From Aulosira sp. DedQUE10 (lineage in GTDB: Bacteria; Cyanobacteriota; Cyanobacteriia; Cyanobacteriales; Nostocaceae), in contig JAVRCF010000017.1 of NCBI GenBank assembly GCA_034530935.1, forward strand, positions 7,314 through 39,313: a stretch of DNA of 32,000 nucleotides, read 5' to 3'. The translations under genes and the position numbers were made by a program. Shown here in pieces: positions 6,454 to 15,007 of the stretch. Under the pieces are notes generated by a model. The model saw only the letters and a list, made by a program, of their open reading frames with translations. It was not told the origin of the DNA and did no database searches. The stretch's first letter is position 1, and every line of letters begins with the position of its first letter.

Positions 6454-7116
6454 ATGGACAATTCCCCCATCAAGGCTGTTCAAGCCCCCTATTACGGCGA
6501 TAACTCTTACCGGACACCGCCGCCAGATTTACCTTCCCTCTTATTAAAGGAGCGAATTGTCTATCTTGGGATGCCACTGGTGCCTGCTGTCACGGAATTG
6601 ATTGTCGCCCAACTACTGTATTTACAGTCCGACGATCCAGAGAAGCCGATTAAAATTTATATCAACTCCACCGGCACATCCGGTTATAGTGGCGATCCCA
6701 TTGGCTTTGAAACCGAAGCCTTCGCCATCTATGACACCATGAAATACATCAAGCCACCCATCCATACTATTTGCATTGGTTCAGCAATGGGTATGGCAGC
6801 GATGCTACTCGGTGCCGGTACTAAAGGTTGCCGCGCGAGTTTACCCAACGCCAATATTATCCTGCATCAGCCCAAGAGCTACGCCCAAGGTCAAGCAACG
6901 GATATTCAAATTCGGGCGAAGGAAGTTCTGGCAAACAAGGCTTCAATGGTTGACATCATACATCGCACCACCGGGCAAGCCCCAGAAAAAATTACCAAAG
7001 ATATGGATCGCCTGTTCTACATGACTCCCTATCAAGCTAAGGAATATGGTTTGATTGACCGAGTTTTTGAAAAAGAAGAACTGGCCAATCCACCTCTGCC
7101 TGCTAGTGTCCTTTAA
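6454..7116 (+). CDS. clpR: ClpR, a catalytically inactive ClpP-like subunit
   Basis: 220 aa of the ClpP family. Aligned to the downstream ClpP, CIGSAMGMAAMLL versus [13 protein letters not shown] puts Gly where the catalytic Ser should be. DRLFYM versus DRDFFM shows loss of the triad Asp. Confidence 0.85.
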   Translation: MDNSPIKAVQAPYYGDNSYRTPPPDLPSLLLKERIVYLGMPLVPAVTELIVAQLLYLQSDDPEKPIKIYINSTGTSGYSGDPIGFETEAFAIYDTMKYIKPPIHTICIGSAMGMAAMLLGAGTKGCRASLPNANIILHQPKSYAQGQATDIQIRAKEVLANKASMVDIIHRTTGQAPEKITKDMDRLFYMTPYQAKEYGLIDRVFEKEELANPPLPASVL

Positions 7117-7117
7117 T

Positions 7118-7188
7118 TTGTTATTTGTCCTTTGTCCTTTGTCTCAAGACTAATGACTAATGACCAATGACTAATGACCAATGACTAA
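7118..7188. repeat. STRR-type heptamer tandem repeats in the clpR-clpP spacer
   Basis: TTTGTCC units are followed by alternating AATGACT/AATGACC units. TGACCAA is the complement of the classic STRR heptamer TTGGTCA. Confidence 0.8.
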
Positions 7189-7209
7189 ATTACTTTTGGA
7201 GTAGCGACA

Positions 7210-7803
7210 ATGCCTATAGGTGTTCCTAAAGTTCCTTACCGGATGCCCGGCGGGCAGTTTACAGATTGGATTAGTATCTACGATCGCCTGTACCGAGAAA
7301 GAATTATTTTCTTGGGGCGTGACATTGATGATGAAATAGCCAATCAAATTATTGCCGTTATGCTGTATCTGGATTCAGAAGATCCAGGTAAGGATATTTA
7401 TTTGTACATCAATTCCCCTGGTGGTATGGTTACCTCAGGCTTGGCAATTTTTGATACCATGCAACACATCAAATCAGATGTGGTGACAATCTGTGTCGGT
7501 TTAGCCGCCTCAATGGGTTCTTTCCTGTTGGCAGCTGGAACCAAAGGCAAACGCATGGCATTACCTCACTCACGGATTATGATTCACCAACCTTCTGGTG
7601 GAACCCGTGGACAAGCAACCGATATCGAAATTGAAGCTAGAGAGATTCTGCGGATTCGTCACCAGCTCAATCAGATTTATGTCAACAATACAGGTCAGAC
7701 TTTAGCCAAGATTGAAAAAGACATGGATCGTGACTTTTTCATGTCTGCCGCAGAAGCTAAAGAGTACGGTTTGATTGACCGTGTAATTGAAGAACGCCCA
7801 TAA
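7210..7803 (+). CDS. clpP: ATP-dependent Clp protease proteolytic subunit ClpP (ClpP3-like by its pairing with clpR)
   Basis: 197 aa. The Ser-His-Asp context is intact (GLAASMG, IMIHQP, DRDFFM). It lies 93 bp downstream of clpR on the same strand. Confidence 0.9.
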
Positions 7804-9576: not shown

Positions 9577-10008
9577 ATGACACATGACCAACATATTAAA
9601 CCAATAGTTTGGGTACATGGAGACTGTCTTAGTCCTCACAATCCCGCACTCCAAAATTATCCCAACGTCCCAGCCATCTGGGTGTGGGATGATGCTTTGA
9701 TAGCAGAATGGCAACTGAGCCTGAAACGCCTCACCTTTATCTACGAATGCTTACTAGAATTACCAGTCGTCATCCGTCGTGGTGATGTAGCACAAGAAAT
9801 TGTAGCGTTTGCCAAAGAGCATCATGCCGACTTAGTTGTAACCACCGCAAGTCCTAGCCCACGCTTTGCTGATATTTGCAACTCAGTGGAATCTTCTTTA
9901 GCTATGGAAGTGCTACAAGTAGAAGCATTTTTTGATTACGACGGGTATATTGACCTGAAGCGCTTCTCCCGCTATTGGAAAGTTGCCCAGAATTATGTTT
10001 TTGAATAA
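9577..10008 (+). CDS. Hypothetical protein resembling the N-terminal alpha/beta domain of photolyase/cryptochrome (stand-alone)
   Basis: 143 aa. IVWVHGDCLSPHNPAL...VIRRGDVAQEIVAFAKEHHADLVV recalls the photolyase N-terminal pattern (xxWFRRDLRLxDNPAL...RRGDP...). There is no FAD-binding helical domain. The start codon sits inside AAATGAC heptamer repeats. Confidence 0.5.
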   Translation: MTHDQHIKPIVWVHGDCLSPHNPALQNYPNVPAIWVWDDALIAEWQLSLKRLTFIYECLLELPVVIRRGDVAQEIVAFAKEHHADLVVTTASPSPRFADICNSVESSLAMEVLQVEAFFDYDGYIDLKRFSRYWKVAQNYVFE

Positions 10009-10132
10009 GCAGCGATCGCTAAATCTAGCGTTAAGTTGACACGTATGAGCATTGCTGTGCCCTTACAGTGTGGTTCAAATAGGTGAAAACTGCTGTATAC
10101 CAATTTGAAAAAAGAATGTAACAAATGGGTAG

Positions 10133-10153
10133 GGGCACAGCACTGCTGTGCCC
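10133..10153. repeat. SDR-type hairpin GGGCACAGC-ACT-GCTGTGCCC
   Basis: A perfect 9-bp stem. A near-identical copy with the same GTAGG left flank is at 18146-18165, and a partial copy (gctgtgccc) is near 10053. Confidence 0.8.
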
Positions 10154-10186
10154 TCCGAATGATTTATCTGTCGCTCTACATACTCA

Positions 10187-10396
10187 TTCACGAGTATTAA
10201 AGACTCGTTCACGGAGTTAAAACCCACATTCACGGAGCTAAAAGCCTGATTCACGGAGCTAAAAGCCTTATTAACGGAGCTAAAAGCCTCGTTCACAGAG
10301 CTAAAAGCCTCATTGACGAAGCTAAAAGCCTCGTTCGCGGAGCTAAAAGCCTCGTTGATGGAGTTCAAAGCCTCATTAACGAGTATCAAAGACTCA
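10187..10396. repeat. Tandem array of ten 21-bp units (consensus TTCACGGAGCTAAAAGCCTCG)
   Basis: Unit starts are at 10187, 10208, 10229, 10250, 10271, 10292, 10313, 10334, 10355 and 10376. Central units are near-identical. The two terminal units are more diverged and resemble each other (GAGTAT-AAAGACTC). Confidence 0.9.
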
Positions 10397-10567
10397 ACTG
10401 CATAACATCTTGAGAAAAACTATTCTCATACTCAAGCTCAAAGCAAGAAATATCCTGATTAGAGGCAGAAAATGGTTGTGATCCTAAGTTTGTATCATTA
10501 TCTCCCTAAGTTTACTGAAAAAATTCCTTATAATCATTGGTAATGGTCTAATATCGTACTCAAGGAC

Positions 10568-11023
10568 ATGGAACCAATTACCGTCGGTGCGATCGCTCTT
10601 TTAACTTTAATCGGCAATAAGATCATCGATTGGTCAACAGAAAAGGCTTTGGATGCTGGTTTAGACAAAGCCAAGCAAGTTATTAAAGCTAAATCACCCG
10701 ATACAGCCGCAGCTTTAGAAACCGCAGCCGCACAAGCAGCTTTACCGCCGGGAGAACGAGAAGATATTGGTGAGGCTGTGTTAGTAGAACAGGTAAAAAA
10801 AGCAGCAGAAGCAGACCCGGAAATTAAGGAGGCTGTAGATGCATTAGGAAATCAAGTCACGACGGCTGCACAGGCTAACCCGGAACTGGCAAAGGCTATT
10901 GCAGAGTTAACCGCAGCTATTAAAGCGCAAAGTCCGACAACGGTAGAGAACTGGCAAGGTATAAATATCAAGGGTGGCGAGAATACTATCAGTAATCCCA
11001 CTTTAAACTTTGGCAGCAAATGA
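10568..11023 (+). CDS. Small helical protein with a hydrophobic N-terminus and a C-terminal G/N-rich motif shared with the downstream NLR (Bell-like effector candidate)
   Basis: 151 aa. MEPITVGAIALLTLIGNKII is followed by an A/E/K-rich helical region. The C-terminus is ENWQGINIKGGENTISNPTLNFGSK. The stop overlaps the next start (ATGA at 11020-11023). Confidence 0.75.
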   Translation: MEPITVGAIALLTLIGNKIIDWSTEKALDAGLDKAKQVIKAKSPDTAAALETAAAQAALPPGEREDIGEAVLVEQVKKAAEADPEIKEAVDALGNQVTTAAQANPELAKAIAELTAAIKAQSPTTVENWQGINIKGGENTISNPTLNFGSK

Positions 11024-13140
11024 GCAATGAGAATTGGCAAGGGATAAACATTAAGGGTGGCGAGACTAACATCAACAACCCAACAATTAATATTGGATCA
11101 TCACAACAGACTTCTCCACCAAATATCCCCAACAATTTAATTTACAAAGGCGCTGTCAAGTTTGTTGGGCGAGACAATGAACTTAGCGACATCCATCAGA
11201 AATTGCAGCAGTCTGGTAACGTAGCAATTTCGGCGGTAGCTGGGATGGGAGGTATCGGTAAAACAGAACTAGCAACCCAGTATGCACTAAGACATGAGGC
11301 TGATTATCCTGGCGGTATCTGCTGGCTGAATGGGAGAGAATCGGATTTAGCAGCTAGCATTGTGCAATTTTATCTGTTGTACATCGGTAAAGAAATCCCC
11401 AAAGAATTAGGCGGAAAACTGCTGAACCTCCAAGAACAAGTGCGGTGGTGTTGGCAGCATTGGCAACCATCCGAGGGTTTGGTGTTGGTAGTATTAGATG
11501 ATGTCACTAATTTAGAGAATCTGCGAGAAGTACAACCGACAACCAACCGCTTCCGGGTACTCATCACCACCCGGTTACGCAATCTCAACCCCAATTTTGT
11601 CGAGGAAATTTCCTTAGATGTACTCCCGGAAATTAAAGCGTTAGAACTGCTAACAGCTTTTGTGGGTGAAAAGCGAATACAACGGGAAGAAACAACCGCT
11701 AAACAATTGTGTCAATGGCTGGGATATTTACCCTTGGGGTTGGAATTAGTCGGACAGTATTTAGCTGAAGATCCAGATTTATCTTTAGCAGAAATGTTGG
11801 AAAGACTGAAGGTGCAACGGCTAGAGGATGAAGCACTAGAACGGAGACAGCCAACCCTGAATACAGCACAGCTAGGAGTGAAAGCCGCCTTTGAATTAAG
11901 CTGGCGAGAACTGGAGGAAAAAACTCAGTTTGTGGGTGCGTTGTTGAGTTTATTTGCGCCTGATGTCATACCTTGGCAATTGGTAGAGTTTACCAGTGAG
12001 TTGCTGCATTGGGCAAAGGCAGATGTAACGGAAGCGAGAAAGCAACTCTACAAACGCTATCTCATTCAAAGATTAGAAGATAAAAACGCTTGCTATCAAA
12101 TTCATTCTTTAATTCGGGAGTTTCTCAAAGGGAAATTTGGACAAATTAGCTTCCTCGCTGGTGGTGAAGAGTTAGGAGTGGAATTCAAACAGGCTTTTGC
12201 AGCCACGATGGTAACAAAAGCCAAAGAAATTCCTCATACCCCCACCCGTGAAGTTACCGAGTCAGTGCAAGATACTATTCCCCATCTCCAAGAAGTAGCC
12301 CAAAATTTAATTGATGTCGTCAAGAATGAAGATTTAATTTGGGTGTTTGGGGGATTGGGTAGATTTTATCAAGGACAGGGTTTGTATGCATTAGCAGAAC
12401 CTTGGTACAAGCAGTGTTTATCAACAGTCAAAGCCCGTTTGGGAGAAGAACATCCCGACATCGCCACCAGCCTCAACAATTTGGCTTTACTCTACTTTTT
12501 CCAAGGAAATTACACCGCACCCGAACCCTTGTATCAGCAAGCTTTGGCAATGTATAAACGCTTGCTGGGAGATGAACATCCCCGTTTTGCCACCAACCTC
12601 AACAACTTGGCTTTACTCTACGAATCCCAAGGAAGGTACACTGAAGCCGAACCCTTGTACCAGCAAGCTTTGGCAATGAGAAAACGCCTGCTGGGAGATG
12701 AACATCCCGATGTTGCCGCTAGCCTCAACAACTTGGCTTTACTCTACTCTTCCCAAGGAAATTACACCGCAGCCGAACCCTTGTATCAGCAAGCTTTGGC
12801 AATGAGTAAACGCCTGCTGGGGGATGAACATCCCGACGTTGCCACTAGCCTCAACAACTTGGCTAATCTCTACTTTTTCCAAGGAAATTACACCGCAGCC
12901 GAACCCTTGTATCAGCAAGCTTTGGCAATGAGTAAACGCCTGCTGGGAGATGAACATCCCGAAGTTGCCACTAGCCTCAACAACTTGGCTTTACTCTACA
13001 AATCCCAAGGAAGGTACACTGAAGCCGAATTCTTTTATTTGCAAGCCTTGACGATTTATGAGCAAAAATTAGGTGTTAATCATCCTTATACAGTTAAGTG
13101 TCGTAAAAATCTTCAACTTCTTCGTGATGCTAACTCTTAA
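11020..13140 (+). CDS. NLR-like STAND ATPase: N-terminal G/N-rich motif + NB-ARC + TPR repeats
   Basis: 706 aa. The N-terminus is MSNENWQGINIKGGETNINNPTINIGS. Walker A GMGGIGKT is at nt 11242-11265. Also present: Walker B LVLVVLDDV, RVLITTR, and a GLPL-like YLPLGLELVG. The C-terminus has at least 6 TPR_10/12-type 42-aa repeats (HPDVATSLNNLALLY..QG.YT.AEPLYQQALAM.KRLLGDE). Confidence 0.9.
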   Translation: MSNENWQGINIKGGETNINNPTINIGSSQQTSPPNIPNNLIYKGAVKFVGRDNELSDIHQKLQQSGNVAISAVAGMGGIGKTELATQYALRHEADYPGGICWLNGRESDLAASIVQFYLLYIGKEIPKELGGKLLNLQEQVRWCWQHWQPSEGLVLVVLDDVTNLENLREVQPTTNRFRVLITTRLRNLNPNFVEEISLDVLPEIKALELLTAFVGEKRIQREETTAKQLCQWLGYLPLGLELVGQYLAEDPDLSLAEMLERLKVQRLEDEALERRQPTLNTAQLGVKAAFELSWRELEEKTQFVGALLSLFAPDVIPWQLVEFTSELLHWAKADVTEARKQLYKRYLIQRLEDKNACYQIHSLIREFLKGKFGQISFLAGGEELGVEFKQAFAATMVTKAKEIPHTPTREVTESVQDTIPHLQEVAQNLIDVVKNEDLIWVFGGLGRFYQGQGLYALAEPWYKQCLSTVKARLGEEHPDIATSLNNLALLYFFQGNYTAPEPLYQQALAMYKRLLGDEHPRFATNLNNLALLYESQGRYTEAEPLYQQALAMRKRLLGDEHPDVAASLNNLALLYSSQGNYTAAEPLYQQALAMSKRLLGDEHPDVATSLNNLANLYFFQGNYTAAEPLYQQALAMSKRLLGDEHPEVATSLNNLALLYKSQGRYTEAEFFYLQALTIYEQKLGVNHPYTVKCRKNLQLLRDANS
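12451..13080 (+). repeat. Five in-frame 126-bp tandem units encoding the TPR sensor of the NLR
   Basis: Units start at 12451, 12577, 12703, 12829 and 12955. The segment 12753-12864 differs from 12879-12990 at only 2 of 112 nt. Confidence 0.9.
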
Positions 13141-13217
13141 CTCTTGACCGAACAAGGCAAAAGTTAAAAGTTAAAAGGCAAAAGAAAGAAATAAAAAGAA
13201 AAATGGTCACAGAGCAA

Positions 13218-13517
13218 CTAAATTTATGATGTTGTTGGTCAATTCATGATGGGTTAAACCCCCCACCCTTAAAGCCTTAGTTTAGGGTTGCTTTCCCGCC
13301 CTGCAATGAATTGCGGGCTAATAGTTCAAGTGCGTTGAAACGCACTGAAATTAAAGAACTTGCCAATAGACATCTCCGAAAATGGCGTAGGCACAATTCA
13401 TGAATTGTGCCTACCAAGGATTTCAGACAACGCATAATTAATTTCTGGAGATGTCTAATGAATTGAGGCTGATAGGTTAAACCCCCTATCAATTCGCCAA
13501 CAACATCATAAATTTAG
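13218..13517. mobile_element. MITE-like non-autonomous element (about 300 bp) with 21-bp perfect terminal inverted repeats
   Basis: The left TIR ctaaatttatgatgttgttgg (13218-13238) is the reverse complement of the right TIR ccaacaacatcataaatttag (13497-13517). Imperfect pairing continues inward (ggttaaaccccc on both sides). An internal palindrome gtaggcacaattcatgaattgtgcctac is present. No credible ORF. Confidence 0.75.
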
Positions 13518-13612
13518 GGGCATTATCTTTTTACTTTTTACTTCTCTTCAGTAGCAGACATGGATCAAATAATTGCACAATAAAAGCAGTTCGTCATGGT
13601 TACTACCTAGAA

Positions 13613-15007
13613 ATGCCCACTAAACTAGCTGATACACAAAATTTACTTTCTGAGCTAATTGCCCGCTACTCATCTCGTGTAGATTATTTGATGATTCGCC
13701 TGGAAGAAGCAGAAGGTACTGATATCCTGTTGCGTGGTGACAAAGTAGAAACCCTGAGTGAAGGGATCTCAATCGGTGGACATATTCGCGCTTGTTATAA
13801 AGGTGGGTGGGGTTTGAGCTGCTTTAATCAGCTTTCGACAATTACCGCACGGATTGAAGAAGCGATCGCAGCTGCACGCATGGTAGGAGATGAAGAAACT
13901 GTACTAGCACCCATTGACCCGGTACAAGCAATATGCAGTCTACCCCTAACAGGAACAGATCCGCGAAAGATTTCTCTGTTTGAGAAAAAAGAATTGTGCG
14001 ATCGCTATTGTGAGTTACTCAAAAGCGTTGATTCCCGGATTACTACTACTTCAGTCCGCTACGGTGATAGTTTCCAAAAAATCATTCTCGCTACTTCTGA
14101 AGGTACATTAATCGAGCAATCTTGGGTGGATATGGAAATGCGGTTCGCCGCTACAGCCAGAAACGGCGACACTGTGCAAACTGGTAGAGAAACTACAGGT
14201 TCCCGAAAAGGCTATGAAGACTTAACTTCTTTAGATGCACAAGTTAAGAATGCAGCAAAAAGAGCGATCGCAGCCTTATCTCTACCGTCAGTAAAAGGCA
14301 ATACTTATACCGTAGTCATTGACCCCATACTTACTGGTTTGTTTGTTCATGAAGCTTTTGGGCATCTGTCTGAGGCTGATATGGCTTACGAAAACCCCGA
14401 TTTGTTGGAAGTAATGACCATTGGGCGGCGATTTGGCCCAGAAGAACTGCAAATTTTTGATGGTGCTGCGCCCCTAGGACATCGCGGTAGTTATTTTTAT
14501 GACGACGAAGGTACACCAGCCACGACAACACAATTAATTAAAGATGGAGTTTTGGTAGGACGGTTACATTCCCGTGAAACCGCAGGCAAATTAGAGGAAG
14601 CGCCCACAGGCAATGCTCGCTGTCTCAATTATCACTTTACACCAATTGTGCGGATGACAAACACCTGGATTGAAAGGGGTAAAACACCAGTTGCAGACTT
14701 ATTTAGTCAAATCAAAGAAGGAGTATATGCGCGTAATTGGCTAGGTGGGATGACAAATGGGGAAATGTTCACCTTTAGCGCTGGGGAAGCATGGATGATT
14801 AGAAACGGCAAAATTGCTGAACCTGTGCGAGATGTCACACTTTCAGGTAACGTTTTTCAAACCTTAGCCGATATTGAAGCAATTGGTGATGACTTTTACT
14901 GGGATGAATCTGGTGGTTGTGGTAAAGGTGGACAAAATGGCTTACCTGTAGGTTGTGGTGGCCCAAGTTTGCGAATTCGGGATGTAGTAGTTGGAGGTGA
15001 AGCTTAA
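13613..15007 (+). CDS. tldD: TldD-family metalloprotease (TldD/PmbA superfamily)
   Basis: 464 aa. The HExxxGH motif appears in LFVHEAFGHLSEAD. The glycine-rich C-terminus (GGCGKGGQNGLPVGCGGPSLRI) is typical of TldD. Confidence 0.8.
   Translation: MPTKLADTQNLLSELIARYSSRVDYLMIRLEEAEGTDILLRGDKVETLSEGISIGGHIRACYKGGWGLSCFNQLSTITARIEEAIAAARMVGDEETVLAPIDPVQAICSLPLTGTDPRKISLFEKKELCDRYCELLKSVDSRITTTSVRYGDSFQKIILATSEGTLIEQSWVDMEMRFAATARNGDTVQTGRETTGSRKGYEDLTSLDAQVKNAAKRAIAALSLPSVKGNTYTVVIDPILTGLFVHEAFGHLSEADMAYENPDLLEVMTIGRRFGPEELQIFDGAAPLGHRGSYFYDDEGTPATTTQLIKDGVLVGRLHSRETAGKLEEAPTGNARCLNYHFTPIVRMTNTWIERGKTPVADLFSQIKEGVYARNWLGGMTNGEMFTFSAGEAWMIRNGKIAEPVRDVTLSGNVFQTLADIEAIGDDFYWDESGGCGKGGQNGLPVGCGGPSLRIRDVVVGGEA

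What the first reader, a model, noticed from the sequence alone, without database searches (positions are those of the whole stretch)
10568..13140. Bell-like small protein + NB-ARC/TPR STAND ATPase sharing a terminal motif: candidate amyloid-signalling NLR (cell-death/antiviral) module
Two translationally coupled genes (ATGA overlap at 11020-11023) encode the module. The first is a 151-aa protein with a hydrophobic N-terminal helix (ITVGAIALLTLIG), an A/E/K-rich helical body and a C-terminal G/N-rich segment. The second is a 706-aa NLR-architecture protein with the same G/N-rich segment at its extreme N-terminus, then NB-ARC (GMGGIGKT, LVLVVLDDV, ITTR, LPLGL), then TPR repeats. This is the layout of the fungal NWD2/HET-S paradigm. 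It is also the layout of the bacterial Bell-domain/BASS (bacterial amyloid signalling sequence) pairs reported by Dyrka et al. 2020 in filamentous cyanobacteria and actinobacteria. In those systems the activated NLR is proposed to template the effector's motif into an amyloid fold, unleashing a membrane-targeting N-terminal domain. NB-ARC/TPR STAND proteins are also the scaffold of Avs-type antiphage sensors. I know of no functional test of such pairs in a cyanobacterium, and I cannot assign this motif to a named BASS family by eye.
Basis: partly seen in the sequence, partly recalled or inferred. Interest (0 to 1): 0.85.

Follow-up and report, generated by a model that had tools for sequence, protein, structure and literature searches.

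The report
Known BASS7 Bell/NLR amyloid-signalling gene pair
Two overlapping cyanobacterial genes encode a small helical "Bell" protein and an NB-ARC/TPR receptor that share a 24-residue motif; the pair is real, but it belongs to the already published BASS7 family of proposed amyloid-signalling cell-death modules, so it is an ordinary new member and not a new system.

Summary
ORF A (10568-11023, 151 aa) and ORF B (11020-13140, 706 aa) overlap by ATGA. A residues 127-150 and B residues 4-27 are 19/24 identical (BLASTP E 4e-11). B is NB-ARC plus five to six TPR units.

It is BASS7 of Dyrka et al. 2020. A profile built from 19 published BASS7 instances hits only these two termini in the six-frame window (E 1e-13 and 2e-5). 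The orthologue OUL32057.1/OUL32058.1 (Nostoc sp. 106C, 83% identical) is listed as a BASS7 pair in that paper's Table S2.

Across 11 non-redundant pairs the two motif copies co-vary (own-pair identity 0.68 against 0.57 shuffled, p<1e-5).

The N-terminal domain meets the sequence criteria for Bell. The fold comparison was uninformative.

The mechanism is inferred by analogy: the receptor templates an amyloid fold onto the effector, and the effector then attacks the membrane. BASS7 has not been tested in the papers I read. No defence context was found.

Verdict: new member of a known kind, low interest.

One by-product lies outside the window. In 8 of 21 sampled sister loci the receptor has no motif of its own and lies in frame directly behind the Bell gene's stop codon. 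This suggests stop-codon readthrough.

The parts
10568..11023 (+). Effector gene (151 aa; NCBI MDZ7958458.1, annotated 'hypothetical protein', Aulosira sp. DedQUE10 MAG): Bell domain followed by a C-terminal BASS7 motif
   Evidence: ORF. Exact identity to MDZ7958458.1. 32 homologues in Nostocales and a few other filamentous cyanobacteria. 243 cluster representatives at E<=1e-3.
10568..10945 (+). Bell domain (residues 1-126): N-terminal hydrophobic helix MEPITVGAIALLTLIG with an acidic residue at position 2, then an all-helical body
   Evidence: AlphaFold2 gives six helices (3-13, 26-42, 44-57, 69-82, 84-103, 105-121), mean pLDDT 64. The N-terminus is MEP or MDP in 91 of the 150 representatives inspected. 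The family profile retrieves proteins whose matched stretch is the N-terminal domain and whose C-termini carry BASS7, BASS5-like or BASS9-like motifs.
10946..11020 (+). BASS7 motif, effector side (residues 127-151, ENWQGINIKGGENTISNPTLNFGSK)
   Evidence: A profile of 19 published BASS7 motifs scores E 1.2e-13, 46 bits. The motif matches Table S2 'bass_07' entries. AlphaFold2 gives it low confidence, pLDDT about 40.
11020..11023 (+). ATGA overlap: the NLR start codon overlaps the effector stop codon
   Evidence: Read directly. The same 4-nt overlap is present in 9 of the 13 two-gene sister loci. Translational coupling is an inference.
11020..13140 (+). NLR-type STAND receptor gene (706 aa; NCBI MDZ7958459.1, annotated 'tetratricopeptide repeat protein')
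11029..11100 (+). BASS7 motif, receptor side (residues 4-27, ENWQGINIKGGETNINNPTINIGS)
   Evidence: BLASTP against the effector motif gives 19/24 identical, E 4e-11. The BASS7 profile gives E 1.8e-5; the next best segment in the six-frame window scores E 0.59.
11158..12132 (+). NB-ARC nucleotide-binding oligomerisation module (residues about 47-371), with Walker A at 11242-11265
   Evidence: Pfam NB-ARC 53-269 (E 1.2e-15), AAA_16 47-116, DUF7779 295-371. Walker A at 75, Walker B at 155, TTR at 181, GLPL at 235.
12316..13116 (+). TPR sensor region (residues about 433-699). It includes five near-identical 42-residue units encoded by a 126-bp tandem array at 12440-13050.
   Evidence: Pfam TPR_12 and TPR_10, six stretches each. 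Tandem Repeats Finder: period 126, 4.8 copies, 86% matches. Units listed.

Best explanation
The locus is a two-gene BASS7 module of the Bell/NLR amyloid-signalling type.

Shown here:
- A small Bell-domain protein and an NB-ARC/TPR STAND protein are encoded by overlapping genes.
- They carry the same 24-residue G/N/I-rich motif, at the C-terminus of the first and the N-terminus of the second.
- The motif matches the published BASS7 family.
- The two copies co-evolve within pairs.
- The pair travels as a unit between different genomic neighbourhoods.

Inferred by analogy with HET-S/NWD2 in fungi and Bab/Agp in E. coli:
- The TPR region senses an unknown ligand.
- ATP-dependent oligomerisation of the NB-ARC brings several N-terminal motifs together, and they adopt a cross-beta fold.
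- This fold templates the same motif on the Bell protein.
- Conversion releases the Bell N-terminal hydrophobic helix, which attacks the membrane and kills or arrests the cell.
- The biological role would be abortive infection or another regulated cell death in a filamentous cyanobacterium.

I put membership of BASS7 Bell/NLR at about 0.95 and the amyloid-templating, membrane-killing mechanism at about 0.6.
For: - Architecture and motif identity.
- BASS7 assignment: the published motif lists and Table S2 contain this motif. A profile built from 19 published instances, with close orthologues left out, hits only the two termini in the whole six-frame window.
- Orthologues named in the paper: P0006 is OUL32057.1 and P0029 is PSB30757.1.
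- Bell criteria: hydrophobic N-terminal helix with acidic residue 2, an all-alpha body of about 120 residues, and homology to proteins carrying other BASS families.
- Co-variation: in 11 non-redundant pairs own-pair motif identity is 0.68 against 0.57 (sd 0.023) for shuffled partners; none of 100,000 shuffles reached it. Examples are column 18 P/P, N/N or S/S, and columns 7-9 NIK/NIK against ITT/ITT or ITT/ITQ.
- Gene linkage: 13 sister loci keep the pair, 9 of them with the ATGA overlap, while the flanking genes differ.
- Mechanistic precedent: BASS1 and BASS3 act as prions in Podospora and form fibrils. Bab/Agp (BASS11) is an abortive-infection system that works by amyloid conversion.
Against: - No BASS7 peptide was tested for fibril or prion behaviour in the papers I read.
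- The function of Bell/NLR pairs is stated to be unknown.
- The structural model is only moderately confident (pLDDT 64). Foldseek found no solved structure at E<1, so no link to HeLo, MLKL or Bab folds could be shown. The PDB sequence profile search also found nothing.
- There is no Pfam, NCBIfam or PADLOC model for ORF A.
- The neighbours are housekeeping genes, not a defence island: ClpP x2, DnaJ, ThiS, TldD, CoaE, CobA/HemD and Trk.
- No promoter or terminator consensus was found.
- The sequence comes from a metagenome-assembled genome, so this copy cannot be tested directly in its organism.
Confidence: 0.7

Rival explanations
1. The shared motif is an ordinary docking peptide. The two copies mediate a defined, non-amyloid heterotypic interaction, for example beta-strand pairing in a finite complex. 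The receptor would sequester or release the small protein with no prion-like templating.
For: Within-pair co-variation is equally expected for any specific interaction. AlphaFold2 gives no structure for the motif. BASS7 has not been tested for fibrils in the papers read.
Against: The composition (G, N, I and T, about 22-25 residues, terminal position) matches the other BASS and fungal motifs that do form amyloid. Homotypic rather than complementary sequence similarity is what templating predicts. The same Bell domain is combined with many unrelated motifs. That fits a generic self-templating tag better than a co-adapted interface on a fixed partner surface.
Confidence: 0.15
2. The mechanism is as proposed, but the role is not antiviral. 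The module would control developmental or allorecognition cell death within or between filaments, or respond to abiotic or proteotoxic stress.
For: BASS pairs are almost confined to multicellular bacteria. There is no defence-island context, no PADLOC system hit and no phage genes nearby. The ligand of the TPR region is unknown.
Against: The only functionally tested bacterial relative, Bab/Agp, is an antiphage abortive-infection system. Near-identical tandem TPR units and receptor lengths of 706 to 1025 aa among close orthologues are typical of fast-evolving immune receptors; this is an inference.
Confidence: 0.25
3. The similarity is a by-product of a recent local duplication or gene conversion and has no signalling function. 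ORF A would be an unrelated small helical protein, for example phasin-like or apolipoprotein-like.
For: There are weak sub-threshold Pfam matches to Phasin_2 and ApoLp-III (E 0.012 and 0.29, both below the cut-offs). The two motif-coding stretches are direct DNA repeats, 53/78 identical.
Against: The motif pair is conserved and co-varies across at least 11 non-redundant loci in several genera. The DNA copies are only 68% identical while the peptides are 79% identical, so the similarity is kept at protein level. The profile hits are specific to the two termini.
Confidence: 0.02

Closest known systems
BASS7 Bell / NB-ARC-TPR gene pairs of Nostocales (Dyrka et al. 2020, bioRxiv 10.1101/2020.01.06.895854, Table S2), e.g. 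OUL32057.1/OUL32058.1 of Nostoc sp. 106C and OYE01691.1/OYE01692.1 of a Peltigera cyanobiont Nostoc
   Same: The effector has the same size (151 aa in Nostoc sp. 106C, 83% identical). The motif family, its positions (130-151 in the effector, 2-30 in the receptor), the NB-ARC/TPR partner and the overlapping collinear genes are all the same.
   Different: Only the source organism (a metagenome-assembled Aulosira genome), the genomic neighbourhood and the number of TPR units differ. The window motif is the consensus NWQGINIKGG form, whereas Nostoc sp. 106C carries the diverged QG(V/I)IT(T/Q)GG form on both partners.
HET-S / NWD2 of Podospora anserina (HeLo effector plus NACHT-WD receptor sharing a HET-s-type amyloid motif)
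   Same: The logic is the same: adjacent genes, the motif at the effector C-terminus and the receptor N-terminus, and a helical effector with a hydrophobic N-terminal helix (the fungal facts are as summarised in those papers).
   Different: No sequence or detectable fold relationship was shown here. The receptor is NB-ARC/TPR instead of NACHT/WD40. There is one motif copy on the effector instead of two pseudo-repeats. The genes overlap and are probably co-transcribed.
Bab / Agp of E. coli ECOR25 (BASS11; Ibarlosa et al. 2024 preprint 10.1101/2024.11.07.622273)
   Same: A small Bell-related effector carries a C-terminal amyloid motif, and the motif is shared with the N-terminus of the adjacent sensor. 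This system has been shown experimentally to be an abortive-infection defence that works by amyloid conversion.
   Different: [quoted passage not shown] The motif family differs (BASS11). Bab/Agp lies in a prophage defence hotspot, whereas the window pair lies among housekeeping genes.
Avs / antiviral STAND NTPases
   Same: A STAND NTPase with a C-terminal repeat sensor; the general NLR logic.
   Different: No PADLOC Avs model matches. Avs proteins carry their effector domain in the same polypeptide, not on a separate protein linked by a shared motif; this last point is from my own knowledge.

Membership tests
BASS7 (bacterial amyloid signalling sequence family 7, Dyrka et al. 2020) | Sequence matches the family motif (consensus about ENWQGINIKGGxNTIxxNTFNF) | tested here: met
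   An HMM from 19 published BASS7 instances scores the effector C-terminus at E 1.2e-13 and the receptor N-terminus at E 1.8e-5. The next best segment in the six-frame window scores E 0.59.
BASS7 (bacterial amyloid signalling sequence family 7, Dyrka et al. 2020) | Motif at the C-terminus of a Bell protein and the N-terminus of an NB-ARC/NACHT protein encoded within 5 kb, usually collinear | tested here: met
   Residues 127-151 of 151 and residues 4-27 of 706. The genes overlap by 4 nt on the same strand.
BASS7 (bacterial amyloid signalling sequence family 7, Dyrka et al. 2020) | The two copies of a pair resemble each other more than copies from other pairs (co-evolution) | tested here: met
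   In 11 non-redundant pairs own-pair identity is 0.68 against 0.57 shuffled; 0 of 100,000 permutations reach it. The pairs are phylogenetically related, so the p-value is optimistic.
BASS7 (bacterial amyloid signalling sequence family 7, Dyrka et al. 2020) | Forms amyloid fibrils, behaves as a prion-forming domain and cross-seeds between partners | not testable with these tools
   This needs peptides or in vivo reporters. In the preprint only BASS1 and BASS3 were tested. ArchCandy and similar predictors were not available.
Bell domain (bacterial domain analogous to HeLo-like) | All-alpha domain of about 100-120 residues in a protein of about 120-150 aa | tested here: met
   AlphaFold2 predicts six helices over residues 3-121, pLDDT 64, pTM 0.54. 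Family members are mostly 120-170 aa.
Bell domain (bacterial domain analogous to HeLo-like) | Hydrophobic N-terminal helix with an acidic residue at position 2 or 3 | tested here: met
   The sequence starts MEPITVGAIALLTLIG. P3, T5 and I9 are nearly invariant in alignment A1. MEP or MDP starts 91 of the 150 representatives inspected. The criterion is quoted.
Bell domain (bacterial domain analogous to HeLo-like) | Sequence homology to proteins accepted as Bell | tested here: met
   83% identical to OUL32057.1 and homologous to PSB30757.1, both listed as Bell proteins in Table S2. The family profile retrieves proteins with BASS5-like and BASS9-like C-termini through the N-terminal domain, for example E 6.6e-11 over positions 1-144.
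Bell domain (bacterial domain analogous to HeLo-like) | Fold related to the HeLo, Hell, MLKL or Bab helical bundles; membrane-targeting, cell-killing activity | tested here: inconclusive
   Foldseek against the PDB gave no match below E 2.9 and TM scores no higher than 0.28. The model confidence is too low to count this as negative evidence. The activity cannot be tested here.
NLR-type STAND NTPase (NB-ARC plus repeats) | NB-ARC with Walker A, Walker B, sensor (TTR) and GLPL motifs, followed by a C-terminal repeat domain | tested here: met
   Pfam NB-ARC E 1.2e-15 and TPR_12 E 1.7e-103. The motifs are at residues 75, 155, 181 and 235.
Avs (antiviral STAND) defence systems | Match to an Avs/AVAST model, with the effector domain fused in the same protein | tested here: not met
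   PADLOC gives only a generic TPR model (E 2e-16) and two insignificant hits, with no Avs model. The N-terminus is a 27-residue motif, not an effector domain.

The most novel reading that the evidence does not exclude
The two-gene arrangement in the window may be one of two alternative encodings of the same signalling logic. This reading rests on related loci, not on the window itself.

In 8 of 21 sister loci sampled through effector homologues, and in all 5 loci found with a junction pattern that did not specify a stop codon, three things hold.
- The downstream partner has no BASS copy of its own. It is an NB-ARC receptor in most loci.
- It lies exactly in frame behind the Bell-BASS stop codon (TGA, once TAG, always followed by CTA or CTG).
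- A DNA junction of about 40 nt after the stop is conserved.
In 8 of the 11 loci with an NB-ARC receptor there is no ATG, GTG or TTG before the conserved FVGR start of the NB-ARC.

The reading this allows is programmed stop-codon readthrough, or an equivalent recoding. One gene would then make both the free effector (Bell-BASS) and a receptor that carries the very same motif (Bell-BASS-NB-ARC-TPR).

If true, this would be natural genetic evidence that sharing the motif is the essential feature of these systems. I found no description of recoding in a bacterial NLR system in the papers searched.
Probability: 0.4. Interest if true: 0.75.

Novelty: new member of a known kind. Interest (0 to 1): 0.3.

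Why it matters
As it stands the finding adds one more BASS7 pair, from an uncultured Aulosira, to more than 300 published Bell/NLR pairs. It does not change what is known.

Its practical value is as an annotation. The two proteins are currently labelled 'hypothetical protein' and 'tetratricopeptide repeat protein', and no Pfam, NCBIfam or PADLOC model recognises the effector. Automated pipelines therefore miss this class.

The biological question is still open: what do Bell/NLR pairs do in filamentous cyanobacteria, and is BASS7 really an amyloid switch? Culturable carriers of near-identical pairs, such as Nostoc sp. FACHB-152 and Nostoc sp. 106C, would be better test beds than this MAG.

The sister loci with an in-frame stop are the part of this work that could matter more widely, if confirmed.

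Tried and rejected
- Pfam, NCBIfam and PADLOC scans of ORF A gave no significant family. Those libraries contain no model that recognises it.
- A PDB sequence profile search with the family alignment found nothing at E<0.03.
- AlphaFold2 followed by Foldseek against the PDB gave pLDDT 64 and a best E-value of 2.9. This is uninformative, so it was not used for or against a HeLo/MLKL/Bab-like fold.
- The promoter and terminator scan of 10000-13700 found nothing.
- Rfam found nothing in the window at gathering threshold.
- A literal full-text search for the motif found nothing relevant. The supplements did contain it.
- I searched for continuous Bell-BASS-NB-ARC fusion proteins using the conceptual readthrough product of the Cylindrospermum locus. 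None appeared among the 120 best hits. A more distant continuous Bell-NACHT protein does exist (P0273).
- RNA structure after the in-frame stop: only a 5-bp hairpin with weak covariation was found. It is not claimed as an element.
- The junction element of the in-frame-stop loci is absent from the window.
- Avs membership was considered and rejected.
- The duplication-artefact reading was considered and rejected.
Full report
**1. Observation**

The window holds two same-strand ORFs. ORF A is 10568..11023 (151 aa) and ORF B is 11020..13140 (706 aa). The sequence 'aaATGAgc' places ORF B's ATG over ORF A's TGA at 11020-11023.

BLASTP of A against B gives one significant local match. A 127-150 (ENWQGINIKGGENTISNPTLNFGS) aligns with B 4-27 (ENWQGINIKGGETNINNPTINIGS) at 19/24 identical, no gaps, E 4e-11. 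The coding DNA of the two copies is only 53/78 identical, so the similarity is held at protein level.

ORF B is an NB-ARC protein (Pfam E 1.2e-15, residues 53-269). It carries TPR_12/TPR_10 repeats over residues about 433-699. Walker A GMGGIGKT is at residue 75, Walker B VLVVLDD at 155, LITTR at 181 and GYLPLG at 235.

Five 42-residue TPR units are encoded by a 126-bp tandem array that is 86% self-identical (12440-13050).

ORF A has no Pfam, NCBIfam or PADLOC family. AlphaFold2 with a 30-sequence alignment predicts six helices over residues 3-121 and a low-confidence tail that coincides with the motif (mean pLDDT 64).

**2. What it is**

ORF A is identical to MDZ7958458.1 ('hypothetical protein', Aulosira sp. 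DedQUE10, a MAG). ORF B is MDZ7958459.1 ('tetratricopeptide repeat protein').

ORF A has 32 homologues at E<=0.01, nearly all from Nostocales. A profile search of 1.84 billion cluster representatives finds 243 relatives. Almost all are 120-170 aa and begin MEP or MDP followed by a hydrophobic stretch.

The C-termini of these relatives carry varied short G/N/Q-rich motifs. Among the 150 best, 19 have the NW[QK]GINIKGG motif. Many have KLAEKIGxVxQGG, and a few have a ...GYQ/NYQ... type motif.

The supplementary data of Dyrka et al. 2020 (bioRxiv 10.1101/2020.01.06.895854) and of the follow-up grammar paper (PMC8086366) contain exactly these motifs:
- NWQGINIKGG...NTFNF is 'bass_07'.
- KLAEKIG...QGG is 'bass_05'.

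Three of my homologues appear by accession in those data:
- P0006 is OUL32057.1 of Nostoc sp. 106C. It is 151 aa and 83% identical to ORF A. With OUL32058.1 it is listed as a BASS7 pair.
- P0029 is PSB30757.1, also a listed BASS7 pair.
- P0027 is K9WZH9, which is in the BASS7 motif set.

BAY10909.1 of Calothrix sp. NIES-2098 shares ORF A's 90% cluster.

As a direct profile test, I built an HMM from 19 published BASS7 effector-side instances, leaving out the closest orthologues. I searched all 655 stop-to-stop segments of the six-frame window with it. Only the ORF A C-terminus (E 1.2e-13) and the ORF B N-terminus (E 1.8e-5) score. The next best segment scores E 0.59.

The module is therefore a BASS7 Bell/NB-ARC-TPR pair.

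**3. Evidence that the pairing is functional**

I fetched 14 genomic loci with the effector alignment and more through exact-protein look-ups.

Thirteen loci, counting the window, have the two-gene layout with a motif on both proteins. Nine of these have the same ATGA overlap. The other four have spacers of 7 to 237 nt.

The flanking genes differ between loci. Examples are a photolyase-like gene and TldD in the window, nuclease-like or plasmid partition and relaxase genes elsewhere. The pair therefore moves as a unit.

I combined my loci with the published pairs to give 11 non-redundant BASS7 pairs. The mean identity between an effector motif and its own receptor's motif is 0.68. With shuffled partners it is 0.57 (sd 0.023), and none of 100,000 shuffles reaches the observed value.

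The co-variation is visible by eye:
- Column 18 is P/P in the window clade, N/N in most others and S/S in Nostoc sp. 106C.
- Columns 7-9 are NIK/NIK in most pairs, but ITT/ITT and ITT/ITQ in two diverged pairs.
- Column 13 is P/P in the Peltigera-cyanobiont clade.

The pairs are related by descent, so the permutation p-value is optimistic. The direction of the result is nevertheless clear.

**4. Surroundings**

The neighbours are housekeeping genes:
- two ClpP paralogues, a DnaJ/TPR protein, a ThiS/MoaD-like protein and a small photolyase/Usp-like protein upstream;
- TldD/PmbA, CoaE and CobA/HemD downstream;
- further away, VWA proteins, a PIN protein, UbiA, a methyltransferase and TrkH/TrkA.

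There is no defence island, no Rfam element, and no sigma-70 or intrinsic-terminator consensus around the pair. A 21-bp tandem array lies just upstream (10183-10381).

**5. How it most likely works**

Shown here: the architecture, the family assignment, the motif sharing and co-variation, and the linkage.

Inferred from established knowledge of HET-S/NWD2 and from the Bab/Agp study:
- The TPR array binds an unknown trigger.
- The NB-ARC oligomerises.
- The clustered N-terminal BASS7 segments fold into a cross-beta nucleus.
- The nucleus templates the effector's BASS7.
- Conversion frees the Bell N-terminal hydrophobic helix to act on the membrane, causing cell death or arrest.

The overlap suggests co-translation of the two proteins.

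Weak points:
- BASS7 itself has not been tested in the papers I read. In the preprint only BASS1 and BASS3 were, including one Nostoc punctiforme BASS3.
- The 2024 preprint says the function of Bell/NLR pairs 'remains to be elucidated'.
- My model of the Bell domain found no structural neighbour.
- Nothing links this locus to phage.

I put membership at about 0.95 and the mechanism at about 0.6.

**6. Comparison and novelty**

The closest known systems are the BASS7 pairs themselves. Next come HET-S/NWD2, which shares the logic but shows no detectable homology here. Then Bab/Agp, which has a Bell-related effector and has been tested functionally, but uses a different sensor and motif family.

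It is not an Avs system by PADLOC.

The locus is a new member of a known kind. A specialist would not be surprised by it. Coming from a MAG, it does not make the open functional question easier to test than the published pairs do.

**7. By-product outside the window**

While collecting partner N-termini I found a second layout in sister loci.

It occurs in 8 of the 21 loci reached through effector homologues: L011, L012, L013, L014, L016 (same as L017), L018, L019 (same as L020) and L027. In each of them:
- The Bell-BASS ORF ends in TGA followed by CTA or CTG.
- The downstream protein's reading frame continues directly in frame after that stop.
- The downstream protein has no BASS copy of its own.

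The downstream protein is NB-ARC/TPR in five loci, NACHT-like in one, a predicted transmembrane segment plus TPR in one, and degenerate in one.

The first roughly 40 nt after the stop are conserved even at wobble positions (TGA CTA CAG TCG CCC GAA CGG GAA CGG GTA AAG...). The following codons vary mostly at third positions, as coding sequence does. The fraction of non-consensus bases at codon positions 1/2/3 is 0.16/0.08/0.10 for codons 1-11 and 0.21/0.15/0.35 for codons 12-28.

In 8 of the 11 NB-ARC loci there is no ATG, GTG or TTG between the stop and the conserved FVGR motif that opens the NB-ARC.

I scanned metagenome contigs with the junction pattern, leaving the stop codon out of the pattern. 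This returned five more loci:
- All five have a stop codon immediately 5' of the junction (TGA in four, TAG in one).
- All five have an NB-ARC in frame after it.
- The four with a readable upstream ORF have a Bell-like effector there.

The dichotomy is complete. All 13 two-gene loci have a motif on the receptor. All 8 in-frame-stop loci lack it.

No continuous fusion appeared among close relatives. A more distant continuous Bell-NACHT protein does exist.

A 5-bp hairpin 8 nt after the stop has only weak covariation support.

The preprint does not mention readthrough, and a full-text search found nothing relevant.

The simplest reading is programmed stop-codon readthrough. From my own knowledge, UGA-C, and UGA CUA in particular, are known leaky contexts. 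Readthrough would make both Bell-BASS and Bell-BASS-NB-ARC-TPR from one reading frame.

Two rivals remain: termination-reinitiation at the codon after the stop, and a motif-less receptor that starts at a non-canonical codon. The positions of the called downstream genes in CP003642 and CP051187 imply the second.

This layout is not present in the window. It is reported as a lead, not as part of the verdict.

Noticed in passing
Related loci, not the window: L011:4412-4414, L012:4436-4438, L013:4397-4399, L014:4496-4498, L016:3954-3956, L018:3948-3950, L019:3879-3881 (Cylindrospermum stagnale PCC 7417, Cylst_3053), L027:3412-3414. From the metagenome scan: L021:1997-1999, L022:711-713, L023:3489-3491, L024:1425-1427(-), L025:5290-5292(-): In these sister loci the Bell-BASS gene ends in TGA (TAG in L021) followed by CTA or CTG. 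The NB-ARC, NACHT-like or TPR partner continues exactly in frame behind the stop, has no BASS motif of its own and usually has no canonical start codon before its conserved FVGR motif. About 40 nt after the stop are conserved even at wobble positions. All 13 two-gene loci have a receptor motif and all 8 in-frame-stop loci lack one. This suggests stop-codon readthrough (or termination-reinitiation) producing both the effector and an effector-motif-receptor fusion. I found no mention of it in the papers searched.
   Followed up: partly
window 10183-10381 (minus-strand ORF 10075..10389): A 21-bp tandem array (9.5 copies, 80% matches, consensus CTCATTCACGGAGCTAAAAGC) lies about 190 nt upstream of the effector gene. 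On the minus strand it reads as a repetitive 104-aa ORF (NEAFSSV heptads) with no Pfam match. It is probably non-coding repeat DNA.
   Followed up: partly
window 12440-13050: The receptor's TPR region is a 126-bp tandem array (4.8 copies, 86% identical). The five 42-residue units differ mainly at a few positions (LY-xx-QG-x-YT-x-x-EP). Orthologous receptors range from 706 to 1025 aa. Together these suggest repeat shuffling or expansion, as described for fungal NLR repeats.
   Followed up: partly
L018:3501-6266 and L011 (both on contig JAECZA010000316.1, Dendronalium phyllosphericum CENA369); also L007: One 34.7-kb contig carries two different Bell modules (a BASS7-like and an NIQNQ-type motif, with an NB-ARC and a NACHT-like partner). 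They sit next to relaxase/MobC, ParB and PIN genes. L007 has ParA-like genes upstream. Some members of this family therefore appear to sit on plasmid-like or mobile DNA.
   Followed up: no
L009:4001-4576 (Nostoc sp. NMS7): This effector homologue has lost its stop after the BASS7 motif (191-aa ORF...NNTLNFCTVTFYLSL...). It has no downstream receptor on the same strand, and a 1165-aa Walker-A protein lies upstream. It looks like a decayed or rearranged module.
   Followed up: no
window 6454-7803: Two adjacent ClpP-family genes (220 and 197 aa) are followed by a DnaJ-TPR protein. This looks like ordinary cyanobacterial housekeeping and is noted only as context.
   Followed up: no
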